Shown: one piece after another, positions 1-3,743 of the stretch | Numbering within the stretch: position 1 is the stretch's first letter | Layout: every line of letters begins with the position of its first letter | Virus record (IMG/VR): IMGVR_UViG_2802429253_000007 | From: a virus | Lineage: Duplodnaviria > Heunggongvirae > Uroviricota > Caudoviricetes | Direction: 5' to 3' (one strand) | DNA length: 4,004 nt | The notes under the pieces: generated by a model | Databases searched by the model: none | The model's input: the letters and a program-made list of their open reading frames with translations, nothing else | Told to the model about the DNA's origin: nothing | Program-made: the position numbers and the translations under genes

Positions 1-27
1 CCCACAGAATGGGCCAGTTGGCTCTGA

Positions 28-255
28 TCATTTCCCAGGACACGTTTTCCTCCTGCGTTCCCGCATCTGCTGACAGTCAATACAGGTCACCACATCCGGC
101 AGCGCCGCAAGGCGCTGTGCCGGAATAACGTTCCCGCAGTCATTGCAGAAGCCCCGGCTGTGGGGCGCTTCTTTTGTCCGTGTCTGCCAGGCTTTAACGA
201 CGCTCTGACGCTCGTTCAGAACCACTTCACTGATGCGATCGATTTCGTCGGTCAT
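28..255 (-). CDS. DksA/TraR-family C4-type zinc-finger protein (75 aa)
   Basis: Translation contains C-x2-C-x17-C-x2-C (CNDC...17 aa...CIDC), the spacing typical of DksA/TraR zinc fingers; size fits phage/plasmid TraR-like proteins. ATG at 255-253 overlaps the upstream stop (ATGA), and a G-rich stretch (GCGGGG) lies about 5 nt upstream. Confidence 0.8.
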   Translation of the reverse strand: MTDEIDRISEVVLNERQSVVKAWQTRTKEAPHSRGFCNDCGNVIPAQRLAALPDVVTCIDCQQMRERRRKTCPGK

Positions 256-860
256 TTCGGCCCCGCAGACATTTTGTGACGGCTTGATTTGCTGTAACGG
301 GCAAAGCCGTCAAGGGTTCTTACACCGAGATAGCCCAGCGCCGGGGTAAGCAACATCAGCGTGATATCCCAGTCCGGTGATGGCATATGCAGCGTGATAC
401 CTCTGGCACCGGCAATGGCTCCGGCAATCTGGCCGCAGGAGAGCAACAGCACATAGGCCAGACTGCTGTAACAGGAAAGGCGGGCCAGCAGCGGGCGTGT
501 CTGGCGCACATAGCTGTCCGTGGCGTTGTCACCATTGCGGATGGTTTCCTGCTGTTCGTGGTGTGCGGCCTGCTGGTCAGCCAGCACCAGCTTCTGCCGT
601 TCCACCTCCAGCTGTTGCAGCTGAATTTTCAGGGTTTCCAGTTGCACCAGTTGCTCCGGTGACAGCATCACCAGTTTTTGTTCCAGAATGCGTTGCTGTT
701 CAGCAACGGGAAGGCTTTCCCGGACGCTTTCCACCATACCGGCCACCGAGTCAGCGGCGGCAGATGTACTGCCACCAAACCAGCGCCCGACGGAACGAAT
801 CAGCCCCGGCCCGGCTTTCAGCAGAACAGAGGCGATGCCTGAAAGGGTTAACGGATCCAT
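252..860 (-). CDS. Hypothetical protein, 202 aa: soluble N-terminal region with Gln/Leu-rich coiled-coil-like segment and two predicted C-terminal transmembrane helices; possible lysis-module accessory protein
   Basis: ATG at 860 preceded by AGAGGG about 4-5 nt upstream; overlaps the 3' end of the upstream gene by 13 nt. Central heptad-like region (EQQRILEQKLVMLSPEQLVQLETLKIQLQQLEVERQKL); C-terminal hydrophobic stretches (LAYVLLLSCGQIAGAIAGA and ITLMLLTPALGYLGV) followed by a basic tail. Function not recognised. Confidence 0.6.
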   Translation of the reverse strand: MDPLTLSGIASVLLKAGPGLIRSVGRWFGGSTSAAADSVAGMVESVRESLPVAEQQRILEQKLVMLSPEQLVQLETLKIQLQQLEVERQKLVLADQQAAHHEQQETIRNGDNATDSYVRQTRPLLARLSCYSSLAYVLLLSCGQIAGAIAGARGITLHMPSPDWDITLMLLTPALGYLGVRTLDGFARYSKSSRHKMSAGPK

Positions 861-1258
861 GAATCCCTCTTATGAAAACGGCGCTGATGTTTATAAAGTG
901 CCGCGCAAAAAATACCGCCCAGCCAGAACGCCAGCTGATAAGGCTCCTTCAGATAAAGAATGCCGAATGTCAGCATGAAAAAACCAACGGCCCAGACCAC
1001 CCATGACCACACGACAATTCGAAGGGAGGCGGCCCGGAAACGCCTTTTGGGCTGCAGGCGATAAGGTACGTTGCCCAGCTGGAAACTGTGAATCAGGCAG
1101 AGTGTCGCGCCGTATGCCAGCACCATGACCGCAAACGCCCGCCATCCGGCAAAACAGCTCGCCAGAAAAAGTACTGCCGACAGTCCCAGAAACGACCACT
1201 GGCACAACATAAAGCGGGAGTAAATAACGCGAACAAAAAGACTATTCATTCTGTGCAT
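848..1258 (-). CDS. Hypothetical integral membrane protein, 136 aa, about four predicted TM helices (holin-like or immunity-like candidate)
   Basis: Start placed at internal ATG 1258 (MHRMNS...) because AAGGA lies about 8 nt upstream; the longer track ORF (to 1429) has an Arg/Pro/Thr/Trp-rich junk-like N-terminal translation. Four hydrophobic segments separated by basic loops (QPKRRFRAAS; C-terminal KHQRRFHKRDSWIR). Confidence 0.55.
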   Translation of the reverse strand: MHRMNSLFVRVIYSRFMLCQWSFLGLSAVLFLASCFAGWRAFAVMVLAYGATLCLIHSFQLGNVPYRLQPKRRFRAASLRIVVWSWVVWAVGFFMLTFGILYLKEPYQLAFWLGGIFCAALYKHQRRFHKRDSWIR

Positions 1259-1469
1259 TGAGTTTTTCCTTGTACTTCTGGCACTGCCAGAAAATGTCCC
1301 GTGTATCCACGGAGTTCCAGCCACGCATGTAGTAGCTGGCGTGTGTGCCGTCATGGCCGGTATAGTCCAGCGGTTTCGGGGGCGGACCTCCGGCCATGCG
1401 GTGTAAAACCTCCTGACGCAGGCGGTCACGCCGCCCGGCTTTCAGTGAGGCATCCCAGCCTTTGCCCAT
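1242..1469 (-). CDS. Hypothetical small basic soluble protein (75 aa)
   Basis: ATG at 1469 lies 1 nt after the lysozyme stop (TGAtATG), with a G-rich stretch just upstream. Translation is hydrophilic and protein-like with no hydrophobic segment, whereas the overlapping alternative frames look like junk. No family recognised. Confidence 0.5.
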   Translation of the reverse strand: MGKGWDASLKAGRRDRLRQEVLHRMAGGPPPKPLDYTGHDGTHASYYMRGWNSVDTRDIFWQCQKYKEKLNAQNE

Positions 1470-1470
1470 A

Positions 1471-2067
1471 TCACCCCCGCGTGGCGGACATGATGCCCAA
1501 AGGGGTATCGATGATTTCCAGACAGGCGTCGGTCAGCTTTTCCATGCGGTTAAACCAGCCGTTCAGGTATTTGCCCTGGGCGGGTTTTGATTTGATGATG
1601 TCGGCATAAAAGCGGGAACGACGGACAATACAGCGGGCCAGCAACCAGTCCGGGGTGGACAGGCTCACGGCCTTACGGGTACGCGGGCCGATGATGCCGT
1701 CAGCATCCACATCCGCGGCTTCCTGCAAAATTCTGATGGCTTTTTTAACGCCATGCTGAACCGCCGCATCGAACACAAACATCGCCACGCCATCAGGCCA
1801 CTGGTCACATCCGGCAGGCAGCCAGTAATCGCGCCAGTAAATCTGCGCAACCTGTTCGCGGGTTAAGTCCCTGATGCGGGTATCCGGTTTGCCGTCGCCG
1901 TTGACATCGGTTTTGCCGTCAATCACACCGTCGCGGCGGTCAGAAATGCCGTATTTGGTTTCGCCGCCACGGTCAGTGGGGTCATTGACATAAACGCCTT
2001 CGATATCAGGACGCAGAATAAAATTCAGCGCATGTTCAAAGGCCGGGGAGAATTTTTGATTTTCCAT
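1471..2067 (-). CDS. Glycoside hydrolase family 108 lysozyme (endolysin candidate) with C-terminal peptidoglycan-binding (PG_binding_3-like) domain, 198 aa
   Basis: N-terminal motif EGVYVNDPTDRGGETKYGI matches the conserved GH108 catalytic signature; C-terminal DADGIIGPRTRKAV resembles the PG_binding_3 motif. AGGTG lies 5 nt upstream of ATG 2067. There is no N-terminal hydrophobic/SAR segment, so it is presumably cytoplasmic and holin-dependent. Confidence 0.9.
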   Translation of the reverse strand: MENQKFSPAFEHALNFILRPDIEGVYVNDPTDRGGETKYGISDRRDGVIDGKTDVNGDGKPDTRIRDLTREQVAQIYWRDYWLPAGCDQWPDGVAMFVFDAAVQHGVKKAIRILQEAADVDADGIIGPRTRKAVSLSTPDWLLARCIVRRSRFYADIIKSKPAQGKYLNGWFNRMEKLTDACLEIIDTPLGIMSATRG

Positions 2068-2152: not shown

Positions 2153-2602
2153 TTAAGGGCGTCGTGGCGGACGACGAACGGGATGAGGCAGGTTCGGGGA
2201 GGGGTAAAACAAATCCGGCTGGTATTTATTGCGCTCCAGACGTCGCATCCGTTTGATGGCCTTGTAGACGGTTTTATACGTCACTCCGTAACGCTGAACC
2301 AGTTCAGGAATATTATGGCCGTTAAAATCACGCCAGATACGCATATCCCGGACAAGATTCTCCAGAATATTCCCCCTCGGAACATAAACCTGCATCCCGC
2401 CGATATGGCGACAAATCGCCACAACCAGCTCAAGGGAATGAGCAGGGTCTGCGCCAATCCGGGCCAGCTCTTTACGCAGCAGTGCGTTCAGTTCAGAAAG
2501 TAACGCCGGATAAGCGGTGTTTTCCTGGTAATCATGAAGATATTCCAGAACGCTGTCGTCCCGGAGGTCTTCGAATAAATCCTGCTCTTTCATCTGTTTC
2601 AT
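2153..2602 (-). CDS. mor: Mor (middle operon regulator) / Mor-C family transcription activator, 149 aa
   Basis: Translation closely resembles phage Mu Mor as I recall it (DLFEDLRDD..., PALLSELNALLRKELARIGADPAHSLELVVAICRHIGG.QVYVPRG, RDFNGHNIPELVQRYGVTYKTVYKAIKRMRR). ATG at 2602-2600 overlaps the gemA stop (ATGA), the same gemA-mor arrangement as in Mu. It carries a C-terminal Pro/Arg-rich extension. Confidence 0.88.
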   Translation of the reverse strand: MKQMKEQDLFEDLRDDSVLEYLHDYQENTAYPALLSELNALLRKELARIGADPAHSLELVVAICRHIGGMQVYVPRGNILENLVRDMRIWRDFNGHNIPELVQRYGVTYKTVYKAIKRMRRLERNKYQPDLFYPSPNLPHPVRRPPRRP

Positions 2603-3150
2603 ACAGCAATTCTCCCGCTGTTTCGTGCGCGGGCATATGCACTGGTCAGTGCATCATAGCCGCGCAGCTCCCGCCCGGTTTCGCTCACAGGTAAAGGCAC
2701 ACCATGTCGGGCAAAGGCTTCCCGGATGCAGCGCATGTGCCACTGTTTGAGCGTTTCGAGCACAACATGCAACGATTCCCCGTGACACCATGCCAGCGTG
2801 GAAACACCCTGACCGCCATTACGTCTGGCCGTCAGGCGTTCAACGTATTTGTCCAGCGCGGCGTCGCTGATATCGGAGACGAAACCATCAAGAAACATCT
2901 GCTGCCAGATTTTATAAATCTTCTCGCGCGGTGTGACATGCCCCTTAAAGCGACGGCGGGGATGTTTTTTCTGCTTCTTAAAACCGCGCTCTTTCATGGC
3001 ATCGAGCACCTGTTCCAGTTGTGCAACGGACAGCTCGCGGCAACTGGTCTTGCCTGTGCACTGCACCAGAAAGGCGCGGTAAGTGTCATCGTCGAGTTGT
3101 AGATCACGACGGGCGACATGAATTAATTTAATCAGGGATGTGCGATTCAT
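2599..3150 (-). CDS. gemA: GemA / Mu gp16-like protein (DUF1018 family), 183 aa
   Basis: Start placed at ATG 3150 (MNRTSLIK...) because GGAGG lies 7 nt upstream; the track ORF begins 18 codons earlier without an SD. Motif LIKLIHVARRDLQLDDDTYRAFLVQCTGKTSCRELS is characteristic of the Mu gp16/GemA family, and the gene is immediately upstream of and overlapping mor. Confidence 0.85.
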   Translation of the reverse strand: MNRTSLIKLIHVARRDLQLDDDTYRAFLVQCTGKTSCRELSVAQLEQVLDAMKERGFKKQKKHPRRRFKGHVTPREKIYKIWQQMFLDGFVSDISDAALDKYVERLTARRNGGQGVSTLAWCHGESLHVVLETLKQWHMRCIREAFARHGVPLPVSETGRELRGYDALTSAYARARNSGRIAV

Positions 3151-3164
3151 TATCGTACCTCCAG

Positions 3165-3191
3165 AAAAGGGGGCGGTGCGGCAACACCGCC
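3165..3191 (-). terminator. GC-rich hairpin plus short T-tract just upstream of the gemA RBS (weak intrinsic terminator or attenuator candidate, or mRNA structural element)
   Basis: Minus strand reads GGCGGTG-TTGCCG-CACCGCC (7-bp stem, 6-nt loop) followed by CCCTTTTCT, then the GGAGG SD of gemA. The 3-nt spacer and only four T residues make it suboptimal as a terminator. Confidence 0.3.
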
Positions 3192-3223
3192 AGAATTCAC
3201 TCACTAAACAGAGGAAACTTTTT

Positions 3224-3490
3224 ATGAAAAACAGTGAACAGCCTTATGATGTTGCAGGGTATGTCATTGCCTCAAGGTTGCTGATACTCCTTGTCAGAAA
3301 GGGGCTAATTACCGCAGAGGAAGGCAAAACGATCCTCGAAGCCGCAGCAAGCGGAGCGGCAGAGGCTCCGGCATTGAGAACAACGAATAATCCCATCCTG
3401 CAAATATCACAGCTAATCACTGATACCATCAGTTTGTTAGACCAAGATTCTGATGAATATCAAAAGCCTCAGCCATCTGAGCATCCGTAA
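3224..3490 (+). CDS. Candidate small protein (88 aa) encoded opposite to the surrounding operon; hypothetical
   Basis: ATG 3224 preceded by AGAGGAAA (SD with about 8-9 nt spacing, AT-rich spacer). Product is hydrophilic and helix-like (MKNSEQPYDVAGYVIASRLLILLVRKGLITAEEGKTILEAAASGAAEA...). Against it: the 3' end overlaps the minus-strand 104-aa gene by about 60 nt, it contains several rare codons, and a competing minus-strand ORF covers the same DNA. Confidence 0.35.
   Translation: MKNSEQPYDVAGYVIASRLLILLVRKGLITAEEGKTILEAAASGAAEAPALRTTNNPILQISQLITDTISLLDQDSDEYQKPQPSEHP
3244..3429 (-). CDS. Alternative candidate small ORF (61 aa), mutually exclusive with the plus-strand ORF at 3224-3490
   Basis: ATG at 3429-3427 overlaps the stop of the upstream 104-aa gene (TGATG), an arrangement typical of translational coupling. 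No SD; product is Ser/Ala/Val/Leu-rich with almost no charged residues, which could be a small membrane peptide or an antisense shadow. Confidence 0.2.
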   Translation of the reverse strand: MVSVISCDICRMGLFVVLNAGASAAPLAAASRIVLPSSAVISPFLTRSISNLEAMTYPATS

Positions 3491-3743
3491 GAATATCTTT
3501 ATTTGATAGTCCCAGCCTGCGACGAATGTATTCCTCGCGGGCTGCTTCATTTTGTAGCGCCACGGCAGTTTCCACCTGGTTCATTTCACGGTTAATAATG
3601 CTCCGGACTTCTCTGGCGGTGAGGTCATGCTCAATACCATATTTAACGATATCGTGCATACGTTCCAGCATCCTTAAATTAGCCATGACGCCATCAATAT
3701 CAACTGGTGTGAATTTCATTTCTTTTTTCTCTGGTTTATTCAT
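3429..3743 (-). CDS. Hypothetical protein, 104 aa (Mu-like early-region protein of unknown function)
   Basis: ATG at 3743 with GAGGT about 8 nt upstream. Hydrophilic, charged, helix-like translation (MNKPEKKEMKFTPVDIDGVMANLRMLERMHDIVKYG...). Start overlaps the stop of the upstream ORF by 8 nt. No family recognised. Confidence 0.7.
   Translation of the reverse strand: MNKPEKKEMKFTPVDIDGVMANLRMLERMHDIVKYGIEHDLTAREVRSIINREMNQVETAVALQNEAAREEYIRRRLGLSNKDILTDAQMAEAFDIHQNLGLTN

What the first reader, a model, noticed from the sequence alone, without database searches (positions are those of the whole stretch)
848..1258. Unassigned four-TM membrane protein in the position where holin or spanin genes are expected
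The GH108 lysozyme has no N-terminal signal or SAR segment, so it should need a holin to reach the periplasm. The only multi-pass membrane protein nearby is this 136-aa protein with about four hydrophobic helices and basic cytoplasmic loops, located downstream rather than upstream of the endolysin. No canonical spanin pair (N-terminal-TM coiled-coil protein plus lipoprotein) is evident in the module. This may be a non-canonical holin, or something else such as a superinfection-exclusion or immunity protein.
Basis: inference. Interest (0 to 1): 0.5.

Follow-up and report, generated by a model that had tools for sequence, protein, structure and literature searches.

The report
Mu gp19-like membrane protein, not holin
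The four-helix membrane protein is real, but it is a fast-evolving relative of phage Mu gp19, which has been tested and is not a holin, so it is most likely an accessory lysis-timing protein, and the neighbouring 202-aa protein is the better holin candidate.

Summary
The ORF at 848-1258 (minus strand, 136 aa) is a real gene under purifying selection. It encodes an N-in/C-in protein with four membrane helices. The window is the Mor-GH108 module of a Mu-like E. coli prophage. The gene sits between a 70%-identical homolog of Mu gp18 and a 202-aa membrane protein, p202, overlapping both. p202 has C-terminal TM segments, weak GTA-holin similarity, and lies next to endolysins in unrelated phages. 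A DUF2730 ("releasin" family) gene follows.

A census of 90 gp18-anchored loci shows a 115-136-aa 4-TM gene after gp18 in every enterobacterial GH108 module. Mu relatives carrying GH108-gp18-gp19-gp20 link this slot to Mu gp19. Profile comparison supports distant homology (hhalign P about 1e-4, z about 6.9 against decoys). Mu gp19 is published as dispensable for lysis and non-lethal after depolarisation. Vibrio and Shewanella phages with the same module and cytoplasmic endolysins lack the 4-TM gene entirely. The gene is swapped as a cassette: 39-40% identity between flanks that are mostly 93-100% identical.

Best reading: an accessory, antiholin-like modulator rather than the holin. Its function is unproven.

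The parts
848..1258 (-). p136, the finding. A 136-aa inner-membrane protein with four helices, N-in/C-in. Member of PHROG 12596 and a distant homolog and positional counterpart of Mu gp19. Its start overlaps the gp18 homolog by 17 nt and its stop overlaps p202 by 13 nt.
   Evidence: phrog_12596, E 5.3e-53; AF2; gp19 link; dN/dS 0.17-0.24.
1267..1271 (-). Shine-Dalgarno sequence AAGGA, 8 nt upstream of the p136 ATG at 1258. It lies inside the 3' end of the gp18-homolog gene.
   Evidence: Read directly from the sequence.
860..1290 (.). Cassette-exchange zone. DNA identity to allele-B prophages (L017, L022, L024) falls to 47-63% here, against mostly 93-100% on both sides.
   Evidence: sliding identity; protein identities.
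1242..1469 (-). p75, a homolog of Mu gp18 (PF26867 Phage_Mu_gp18). Soluble, 75 aa.
   Evidence: 70% identity, E 3e-37; Pfam label on the ortholog in L006.
252..860 (-). p202, a 202-aa protein with an amphipathic N-terminus, a coiled-coil middle and weakly hydrophobic C-terminal TM segments. It is the best holin candidate of the module (GTA_holin_3TM-like, below threshold).
   Evidence: PF11351, E 1.4e-3 to 4.8e-3 in 4 of 8 diverse members; 215 clusters; adjacent to endolysins in unrelated phages.
1471..2067 (-). GH108 + PG_binding_3 endolysin with no signal or SAR segment.
28..255 (-). TraR/DksA-type zinc-finger protein, a conserved member of the module.
1..43 (-). First 14 codons (GTG start) of the DUF2730 protein, the Mu gp25 'releasin' family. 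One N-terminal TM. The rest lies outside the window.
   Evidence: PF10805, E 1.7e-30; PMC9239132.
2127..2147 (-). Intrinsic terminator-like hairpin plus T-run just after Mor. It marks the start of a separate transcription unit: GH108-gp18-p136-p202-TraR and onward.
2153..2602 (-). Mor-family transcription activator, the presumed activator of the downstream lysis/late operon.

Best explanation
p136 is the counterpart, in a GH108-type Mu-like prophage, of phage Mu gp19. It is a small N-in/C-in inner-membrane protein with four helices. It is co-transcribed from the Mor-dependent operon with the cytoplasmic GH108 endolysin. It is probably translationally coupled to the gp18 homolog upstream and to p202 downstream.

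It is most likely not the holin. The membrane lesion that lets the endolysin out is more plausibly made by p202 (GTA-holin-like), possibly together with the DUF2730 protein. p136 is proposed to be an accessory, non-essential modulator of that step. It would act as an antiholin-like timing factor in the membrane, analogous in architecture and gene position to P2 LysA but not homologous to it.

**Shown:**
- gene reality and topology
- synteny
- family membership
- cassette-like hypervariability
- absence from related functional phages

**Inferred:**
- co-transcription and translational coupling
- p202 as the holin
- the modulatory, antiholin-like role of p136

**Component confidences:**
- gp19-family membership: about 0.8
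- not the essential holin: about 0.75
- antiholin-like role: about 0.35
For: 1. **Synteny with Mu gp19.** p75 is Mu gp18 (70% identity). In Mu, gp18 is followed, with an overlapping start, by gp19: 120 aa, four hydrophobic helices, a GWR turn. Ten Mu relatives carry Mor-GH108-gp18-(gp19)-gp20-C-lys. One is L082, which has an intact 186-aa GH108 and a gp19 100% identical to Mu's.
2. **Sequence link to gp19.**
   - An HMM built from non-gp19 slot proteins scores Mu gp19 at 15.7 bits. The best of 8,000 decoys scores 13.4 and the reversed sequence scores -5.9.
   - hhalign gives P = 9.6e-5 over 92 colinear columns covering TM1-TM4.
   - The score of 29.8 compares with 300 segment-preserving decoys (max 22.7, mean 12.6, sd 2.5).
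   - The 4-TM control P2 LysA gives P = 0.25.
3. **Mu gp19 is not a holin.** It is non-lethal after DNP, alone or with gp20, and it is dispensable for lysis (PMC9239132).
4. **Related phages do without it.** Vibrio and Shewanella Mu-like phages with cytoplasmic endolysins have endolysin-gp18-like-p202-like-TraR-DUF2730 with no 4-TM gene. Their only membrane proteins in the region are p202-like and DUF2730.
5. **p202 is linked to lysis.** It is conserved (about 70% E. coli to Klebsiella; 215 clusters). It lies right after endolysins in unrelated phages. It repeatedly touches PF11351. The RcGTA endolysin-holin locus has the same gene order (PMC5026251).
6. **Operon structure.** Overlapping start and stop codons, no promoter or terminator around p136, and a terminator after Mor.
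7. **Precedent.** A separately encoded 4-TM antiholin downstream of an endolysin exists in P2 LysA (PMC3091744).
Against: - The gp19 homology is distant (about 17% identity, hhalign probability 48-58%). Membrane proteins are prone to spurious profile matches.
- Mu uses a SAR endolysin and needs no holin, so gp19's negative result may not transfer to a phage with a cytoplasmic endolysin.
- p136 meets all the sequence-level hallmarks used to nominate holins: small size, TMDs, a basic C-tail, a position next to the endolysin, and an M-H-R-M dual-start-like N-terminus.
- p202's GTA-holin match is below Pfam's threshold in every member tested.
- In the Janthinobacterium phage a bona fide LydA-type holin coexists with the p202 homolog, so p202 may not be a holin.
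- Two p136 alleles only 39-40% identical coexist with p202 proteins that are 94-100% identical. This argues against a tightly co-evolving specific p136-p202 contact.
- Every enterobacterial GH108-type locus retains an intact slot gene, so it is not freely dispensable in that lineage.
- No experiment exists for any member other than Mu gp19.
Confidence: 0.45

Rival explanations
1. p136 is the holin, or an obligatory co-holin with p202, that releases the cytoplasmic GH108 endolysin. Mu gp19 would then be a decayed or redundant relic of that function.
For: - It is a small protein with four TMDs, a highly basic C-tail and a dual-start-like MHRM N-terminus.
- It sits in the same operon, two genes after the endolysin.
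- It is retained intact in all enterobacterial GH108-type loci.
- The hybrid Mu relatives show that gp18-gp19-gp20 once travelled with GH108.
Against: - The homolog Mu gp19 is non-lethal on depolarisation and dispensable (PMC9239132).
- The gene is absent from Vibrio and Shewanella phages with the same module and cytoplasmic endolysins.
- gp19 is deleted in 7 hybrid loci that keep GH108.
- It matches no holin family in Pfam.
- p202 is an alternative candidate with independent linkage to endolysins.
Confidence: 0.15
2. p136 is a late-expressed exclusion or protection protein in the inner membrane. For example, it could block DNA entry or premature lysis triggering by superinfecting phages. Its alleles would be exchanged in an arms race.
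For: - Sharp cassette-like replacement: 47-63% DNA identity across 860-1290 between mostly 93-100% flanks.
- Many deeply divergent alleles in one conserved slot.
- The family is tiny and lineage-restricted: 12 representatives among 1.84 billion proteins.
- The Mu homolog has no lysis phenotype.
Against: - It has no promoter of its own, and its codons overlap both neighbours, so it is not expressed from the repressed prophage as classic exclusion morons are.
- There are no PADLOC hits.
- Within alleles, selection is purifying (dN/dS about 0.2), not diversifying.
Confidence: 0.2
3. p136 is the membrane partner of the soluble gp18 protein. [quoted passage not shown]
For: - The gp18 to 4-TM gene adjacency, with overlapping codons, is conserved from this prophage to Mu.
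- A conserved cytoplasmic-loop motif, LGN(V/L)PYRL, could be a docking site.
- In Mu the pair lies in the middle operon (PMC9239132).
Against: - gp18-like genes persist without any 4-TM partner in Vibrio and Shewanella phages and in 7 Mu hybrids.
- gp18 is linked at least as tightly to p202: PHROG 2121 spans both.
- The loop motif is missing in gp19 and in the 115-aa alleles.
Confidence: 0.2

Closest known systems
Phage Mu gp19 (E19, Mup19; 120 aa)
   Same: - It immediately follows gp18 with an overlapping start.
- It has four hydrophobic helices with an F-x-G-W-R-A turn between TM1 and TM2 and a basic C-tail.
- Profile-profile similarity is colinear over all four helices.
- In Mu relatives such as L082 the gp18-gp19 pair lies directly behind a GH108 gene, as here.
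   Different: - Identity is only about 17%.
- gp19 lacks the LGN(V/L)PYRL loop motif.
- In Mu it lies in the middle operon, followed by gp20 (39 aa) and C. Here it lies in the endolysin operon, followed by p202.
- Mu has a SAR endolysin and spanins, which this module lacks.
Phage P2 LysA (141 aa, separately encoded antiholin)
   Same: - It has four TM helices and a similar size.
- It is encoded downstream of the endolysin.
- It is non-essential and affects the timing of lysis (PMC3091744).
- It is the closest functional analog for the proposed role.
   Different: - There is no sequence relationship (hhalign P = 0.25).
- P2 has a canonical class I holin upstream and Rz/Rz1-like spanins downstream.
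RcGTA endolysin-holin locus rcc00555-rcc00556 (Pfam GTA_holin_3TM, PF11351)
   Same: It concerns the neighbour p202, not p136. The gene order is endolysin first, then a membrane protein with a coiled-coil and TM segments. PF11351 matches in p202 and its relatives are weak.
   Different: - p136 itself has no similarity to PF11351 or to p202's membrane domain.
- p202's matches are all below the gathering score.
Mu gp25 releasin (DUF2730)
   Same: It belongs to the same conserved module. A DUF2730 gene lies two genes downstream of p136. Its role with cytoplasmic endolysins is an explicitly open question (PMC9239132).
   Different: It is a different protein: single N-terminal TM, N-out/C-in, and unrelated to p136.

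Membership tests
Mu gp19 / PHROG 12596 family (4-TM protein encoded after gp18) | The gene lies immediately downstream of a gp18 (PF26867) homolog, with overlapping start and stop codons. | tested here: met
   p75 is 70% identical to Mu gp18. p136's start overlaps p75 by 17 nt. The arrangement is the same in Mu and in the roughly 80 loci that carry a slot gene.
Mu gp19 / PHROG 12596 family (4-TM protein encoded after gp18) | 115-136 aa, four membrane helices, N-in/C-in, with a basic residue at the tight TM1-TM2 turn. | tested here: met
Mu gp19 / PHROG 12596 family (4-TM protein encoded after gp18) | Detectable sequence or profile similarity. | tested here: met
   PHROG 12596 at E 5.3e-53. To Mu gp19: HMM 15.7 bits, above all 8,000 decoys; hhalign P 9.6e-5; z about 6.9 against 300 decoys. 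BLASTP alone is not significant, so the relationship is distant.
Holins (functional class) | A small membrane protein with at least one TMD and a charged C-terminus, encoded next to and co-expressed with the endolysin. | tested here: met
   Co-expression is inferred from the operon structure.
Holins (functional class) | Match to a curated holin family. | tested here: not met
   No holin family at E <= 0.1 in Pfam. Nothing in NCBIfam. PHROG 12596 has unknown function.
Holins (functional class) | Lethal hole formation that can be triggered by membrane depolarisation, and a requirement for lysis. | not testable with these tools
   The only experimental data concern the distant homolog Mu gp19: no lethality after DNP and dispensable for lysis (PMC9239132).
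Holins (functional class) | Present wherever the same module has to export a cytoplasmic endolysin. | tested here: not met
   It is absent from Vibrio and Shewanella Mu-like phages with the same module.
P2 LysA-type antiholin | Sequence homology to LysA. | tested here: not met
   hhalign P = 0.25.
P2 LysA-type antiholin | Four TMDs, encoded downstream of the endolysin, non-essential, delays lysis. | tested here: inconclusive
   Architecture and position are met. The effect on timing cannot be tested here.
Spanins (i-spanin/o-spanin or u-spanin) | An N-terminal TM plus a periplasmic coiled-coil (i-spanin), or a lipobox lipoprotein (o-/u-spanin). | tested here: not met
   p136 has four TMs, minimal periplasmic loops and no lipobox. 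There is no lipobox ORF in the module.
GTA_holin_3TM (PF11351) | Pfam match at or above the gathering score. | tested here: not met
   p136 has no match and no similarity to the p202-family HMM. For the neighbour p202, matches stay below threshold, 17.8-19.6 bits against a cutoff of 24.8.
Known anti-phage defence / exclusion proteins (PADLOC) | Match to a defence-system model. | tested here: not met
   No hit for p136 or for alleles P0014 and P0016.

The most novel reading that the evidence does not exclude
The gp18-linked 4-TM slot could be a recombining cassette locus that sets allele-specific lysis timing, or phage-phage exclusion, in enterobacterial Mu-like phages. Mu's enigmatic middle genes 18-19-20 would then be the relic of an ancestral, holin-dependent GH108 lysis cassette that was later supplemented by the SAR endolysin, releasin and spanin set. 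Under this reading, p136 and p202 would give an experimental handle on how Mu-like phages with cytoplasmic endolysins breach the inner membrane, a question Chamblee et al. left open.
Probability: 0.25. Interest if true: 0.55.

Novelty: new member of a known kind. Interest (0 to 1): 0.33.

Why it matters
**Correcting the annotation.** The finding moves the holin hypothesis for this module away from the conspicuous 4-TM protein. The better candidates are the overlooked and unannotated p202 family (215 clusters across Enterobacterales, Vibrio and Shewanella) and the DUF2730 protein.

**Evolutionary context for Mu genes 18-20.** Some Mu relatives still carry an intact GH108 endolysin in front of these genes. 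This explains why Mu has membrane proteins that look like lysis proteins but are not needed for lysis.

**An open question.** How Mu-like phages with cytoplasmic endolysins export them is open in the literature (PMC9239132). This module offers a compact four-gene test set: GH108, p136, p202 and DUF2730. The finding itself is a hypothetical accessory protein with an already-catalogued family, so the surprise value is modest.

Tried and rejected
- **p136 as a paralog of p202's TM hairpin.** This was suggested by a weak PHROG 2121 hit. The p202-family HMM scores p136 at -2.2 bits, below the decoys. Rejected.
- **Homology to P2 LysA.** None.
- **PADLOC and NCBIfam.** No hits for p136, its alleles, gp18 or p202.
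- **An early inference that the slot gene is disrupted in L071, L086 and L087.** This was wrong. They have intact genes with non-ATG starts or another divergent allele.
- **PGAP's 'TatA/TatE family subunit' label on a 95%-identical p202 variant.** It could not be reproduced, even at E <= 10.
- **Spanin search.** No lipobox ORF. DUF2730 is N-out/C-in per PMC9239132 and is not an i-spanin.
- **BLASTP of p136 against Mu gp19.** Not significant. Only profile methods detect the link.
- **The genome-contig scan.** It added only two loci.
- **Frameshifted database variants (P0007-P0013).** These were considered as evidence of dispensability. They could equally reflect prophage decay or assembly error, so they carry no weight.

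Full report
**1. What is in the window**

All genes but one lie on the minus strand. In order they are:
- GemA (2599-3204)
- Mor (2153-2602)
- a GH108 + PG_binding_3 endolysin (1471-2067)
- a 75-aa protein, p75 (1242-1469)
- the finding, p136 (848-1258)
- a 202-aa protein, p202 (252-860)
- a TraR/DksA zinc-finger protein (28-255)
- the first 14 codons of a DUF2730 gene (43-1)

The window is 97% identical to a Mu-like prophage inserted in aaeB of E. coli PSS-15. RefSeq annotates exactly the same ORFs there.

**2. The observation**

The ORF 848-1258 encodes 136 aa. An AAGGA Shine-Dalgarno sequence lies 8 nt before the ATG. The hydropathy and charge distribution show 15 of 17 K/R residues in the N-terminus, the central loop and the C-tail. 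An AlphaFold2 model (pLDDT 76.6; helices 20-37, 39-60, 79-101, 106-129) gives a four-helix N-in/C-in inner-membrane protein.

Among close alleles, dN/dS is 0.17-0.24, against about 0.1 for GH108, gp18 and p202. It is therefore a real, constrained gene. The endolysin has no hydrophobic N-terminus. No lipobox ORF exists in any frame of the module.

The statement that p136 is the only multi-pass membrane protein nearby is not correct. In the sequenced part of the prophage exactly three proteins have TM-like segments: p136, p202 and DUF2730.

**3. Family size**

The word-indexed search found 13 clusters. About half of them are frameshifted or truncated versions. An exhaustive HMMER scan of 1.84 billion representative proteins found only 12 at E <= 1e-3. 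Among 50,697 phage records only Klebsiella phage Kp4866-3 has a homolog. It is 31% identical and sits in the same position. The PHROG family 12596 is of unknown function. Nothing matches in the Pfam holin families, NCBIfam or PADLOC.

**4. The key lead: gp18**

p75 is 70% identical to Mu gp18 (E 3e-37; Pfam PF26867 Phage_Mu_gp18). In Mu, gp18 is followed, with an overlapping start, by gp19 (120 aa, four hydrophobic helices) and then by gp20.

I used gp18 as an anchor and collected 82 further loci. I mapped marker genes in all 90 sequences. Three layouts emerge:

- **(i) Enterobacterial GH108 modules.** GH108, gp18, a 4-TM 'slot' gene, p202, TraR, DUF2730, gp26. This is found in E. coli, Klebsiella, Raoultella and others.
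- **(ii) Mu hybrids.** Ten relatives of Mu read Mor, GH108, gp18, (gp19), gp20, C, Mu-lys, gp23 and onward. One is L082, which has an intact 186-aa GH108 and a gp19 identical to Mu's. Seven of the ten have gp19 deleted.
- **(iii) Vibrio and Shewanella Mu-like phages.** Endolysin, gp18-like, p202-like, TraR, DUF2730, with no slot gene.

Every layout-(i) locus has an intact slot gene of 115-136 aa with four helices. One search corrected my earlier impression that three loci were disrupted.

**5. Is p136 homologous to Mu gp19?**

BLASTP is not significant, but three profile tests agree.
- An HMM built only from non-gp19 slot proteins scores Mu gp19 at 15.7 bits. That is above all 8,000 composition- or segment-preserving decoys (max 13.4) and above the reversed sequence (-5.9).
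- hhalign of the two family alignments gives P = 9.6e-5 over 92 colinear columns spanning TM1-TM4.
- Against 300 segment-preserving column shuffles, the real score of 29.8 exceeds the maximum of 22.7 (mean 12.6, sd 2.5). The reversed alignment scores 14.3.

P2 LysA, a same-sized 4-TM protein, serves as a negative control and gives P = 0.25. A shared motif, [CS]-x-F-x-G-[WRL]-[RQ]-A-[FLV], sits at the TM1-TM2 turn in all types. Together with the exact positional equivalence, I rate homology at about 0.8.

**6. Why this weakens the holin reading**

- Chamblee et al. 2022 (PMC9239132) tested Mu gp19 and gp20, alone and together. Unlike lambda S105 and phage 21 S68, they were not lethal after DNP. 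Earlier genetics had shown both genes to be dispensable for lysis.
- The Vibrio phages of layout (iii) were sequenced from plaques and have GH108 endolysins without SAR domains (the paper's sections 10 and 14). They lack the slot gene. The only membrane proteins near their endolysins are the p202-like and DUF2730 proteins.

The 4-TM protein therefore cannot be the essential holin of this module type.

**7. The neighbour p202**

- It is well conserved: about 70% identity between E. coli and Klebsiella, and 215 clusters, all 'hypothetical'.
- It has an amphipathic N-terminus, a Q/E-rich coiled-coil, and weakly hydrophobic Gly/Ala-rich C-terminal TM segments.
- Four of eight diverse members hit PF11351 (GTA_holin_3TM) at E 1.4e-3 to 4.8e-3. 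All are below the gathering score.
- Homologs lie immediately after the endolysin in unrelated phages:
  - Janthinobacterium Donnerlittchen: LydA-type holin, LD-endopeptidase, then p202-like
  - Vibrio LP.1: GH108, then p202-like
  - Vibrio D65: amidase, then p202-like
- The RcGTA lysis locus has the same endolysin-then-holin order and is required for release (PMC5026251).

p202 is thus the better holin candidate. It remains unproven, and its coexistence with a canonical holin in the Janthinobacterium phage is a caveat.

**8. Evolutionary behaviour of the slot**

E. coli prophages L017-L026 have GH108, gp18, p202 and TraR proteins mostly 93-100% identical to the window, with a few GH108 and gp18 values at 89-90%. 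Their slot protein is only 39-40% identical. A sliding DNA comparison of three of them (L017, L022, L024) shows identity falling to 47-63% across window positions 860-1290. This is a clean cassette replacement of p136 plus the last codons of gp18.

The conserved C-terminal 'WIR' is imposed by the overlap with the p202 start codon region. Within an allele class, selection is purifying.

This pattern fits a protein whose exact sequence matters little beyond its topology and a few motifs (W21, G38, LGN(V/L)PYRL, W89, G92). It also fits a protein involved in allele-specific interactions.

**9. Expression**

An intrinsic terminator follows Mor (2147-2127). There is no promoter-like site or convincing terminator near p136. 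Its codons overlap both neighbours. Co-transcription with the endolysin and translational coupling are inferred, not shown.

**10. Conclusion**

p136 is a divergent member of the Mu gp19 family. It is most likely an accessory, antiholin-like modulator of a lysis step carried out by p202, possibly with DUF2730. P2 LysA is the closest functional analog but not a homolog.

Three rivals cannot be excluded without experiments:
- a genuine holin or co-holin
- a late exclusion or protection protein
- a gp18 partner unrelated to lysis

The finding is real. It is ordinary in kind, and useful mainly for redirecting the holin hypothesis and for connecting Mu genes 18-20 to a GH108 lysis cassette.

Noticed in passing
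window 252-860 (-): p202 is an unannotated family conserved across the Enterobacterales (215 clusters). It has sub-threshold GTA_holin_3TM similarity. It lies directly after the endolysin gene in unrelated phages (Janthinobacterium Donnerlittchen, Vibrio LP.1, Vibrio D65). It is probably the real inner-membrane lysis effector of the module.
   Followed up: partly
L094 905-1513 (the p202 ortholog in E. coli RIVM_C019217 and many other genomes): PGAP names a 95%-identical p202 variant 'twin-arginine translocase TatA/TatE family subunit'. No Tat model matched in NCBIfam, even at E <= 10, so the label looks unreliable. The N-terminus (hydrophobic stretch, G-P-G, amphipathic helix) is loosely TatA-like.
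   Followed up: partly
L070, L073, L075-L082 (for example L082 2448-3008): Relatives of phage Mu carry an intact GH108 endolysin gene between Mor and gp18, in addition to the Mu SAR endolysin gp22. That means two endolysins in one phage. Seven of these loci have gp19 cleanly deleted, so gp18 abuts gp20.
   Followed up: partly
window 1242-1469 and 252-860; L003-L005: PHROG 2121 (284 positions) spans both the gp18-like and p202-like proteins. In the window the two genes are in the same reading frame, separated by p136. In Vibrio and Shewanella phages they overlap by 16-28 nt, with p202 in the -1 frame. Fusion proteins or a programmed frameshift may exist in some phages.
   Followed up: no
window 1247-1258 (-): p136 starts M-H-R-M. 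Allele B can be read as M-W-K-K-V-M. This arrangement, with basic residues between two Met codons, recalls the dual-start motifs of the lambda S107/S105 holin-antiholin pair. The Shine-Dalgarno spacing favours the first ATG.
   Followed up: no
window 3224-3490 (+): This is the only plus-strand gene of the window (88 aa, PHROG 8747, unknown function). It is convergent with and overlaps the 104-aa minus-strand gene at 3429-3743. It is annotated in PSS-15.
   Followed up: no
E. coli strains 48956 and 47258 (hits H13, H14) and the RIVM strains (L094 2820-3299): Some E. coli copies of this prophage region carry an IS21-like ISEc62 insertion. Others have an extra 159-aa hypothetical gene between Mor and GH108.
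   Followed up: no
proteins P0007-P0013: About half of the database clusters related to p136 are frameshifted or truncated versions. They include a gp18-p136 read-through (P0011, P0017). The cause could be prophage decay or assembly and annotation artefacts.
   Followed up: no
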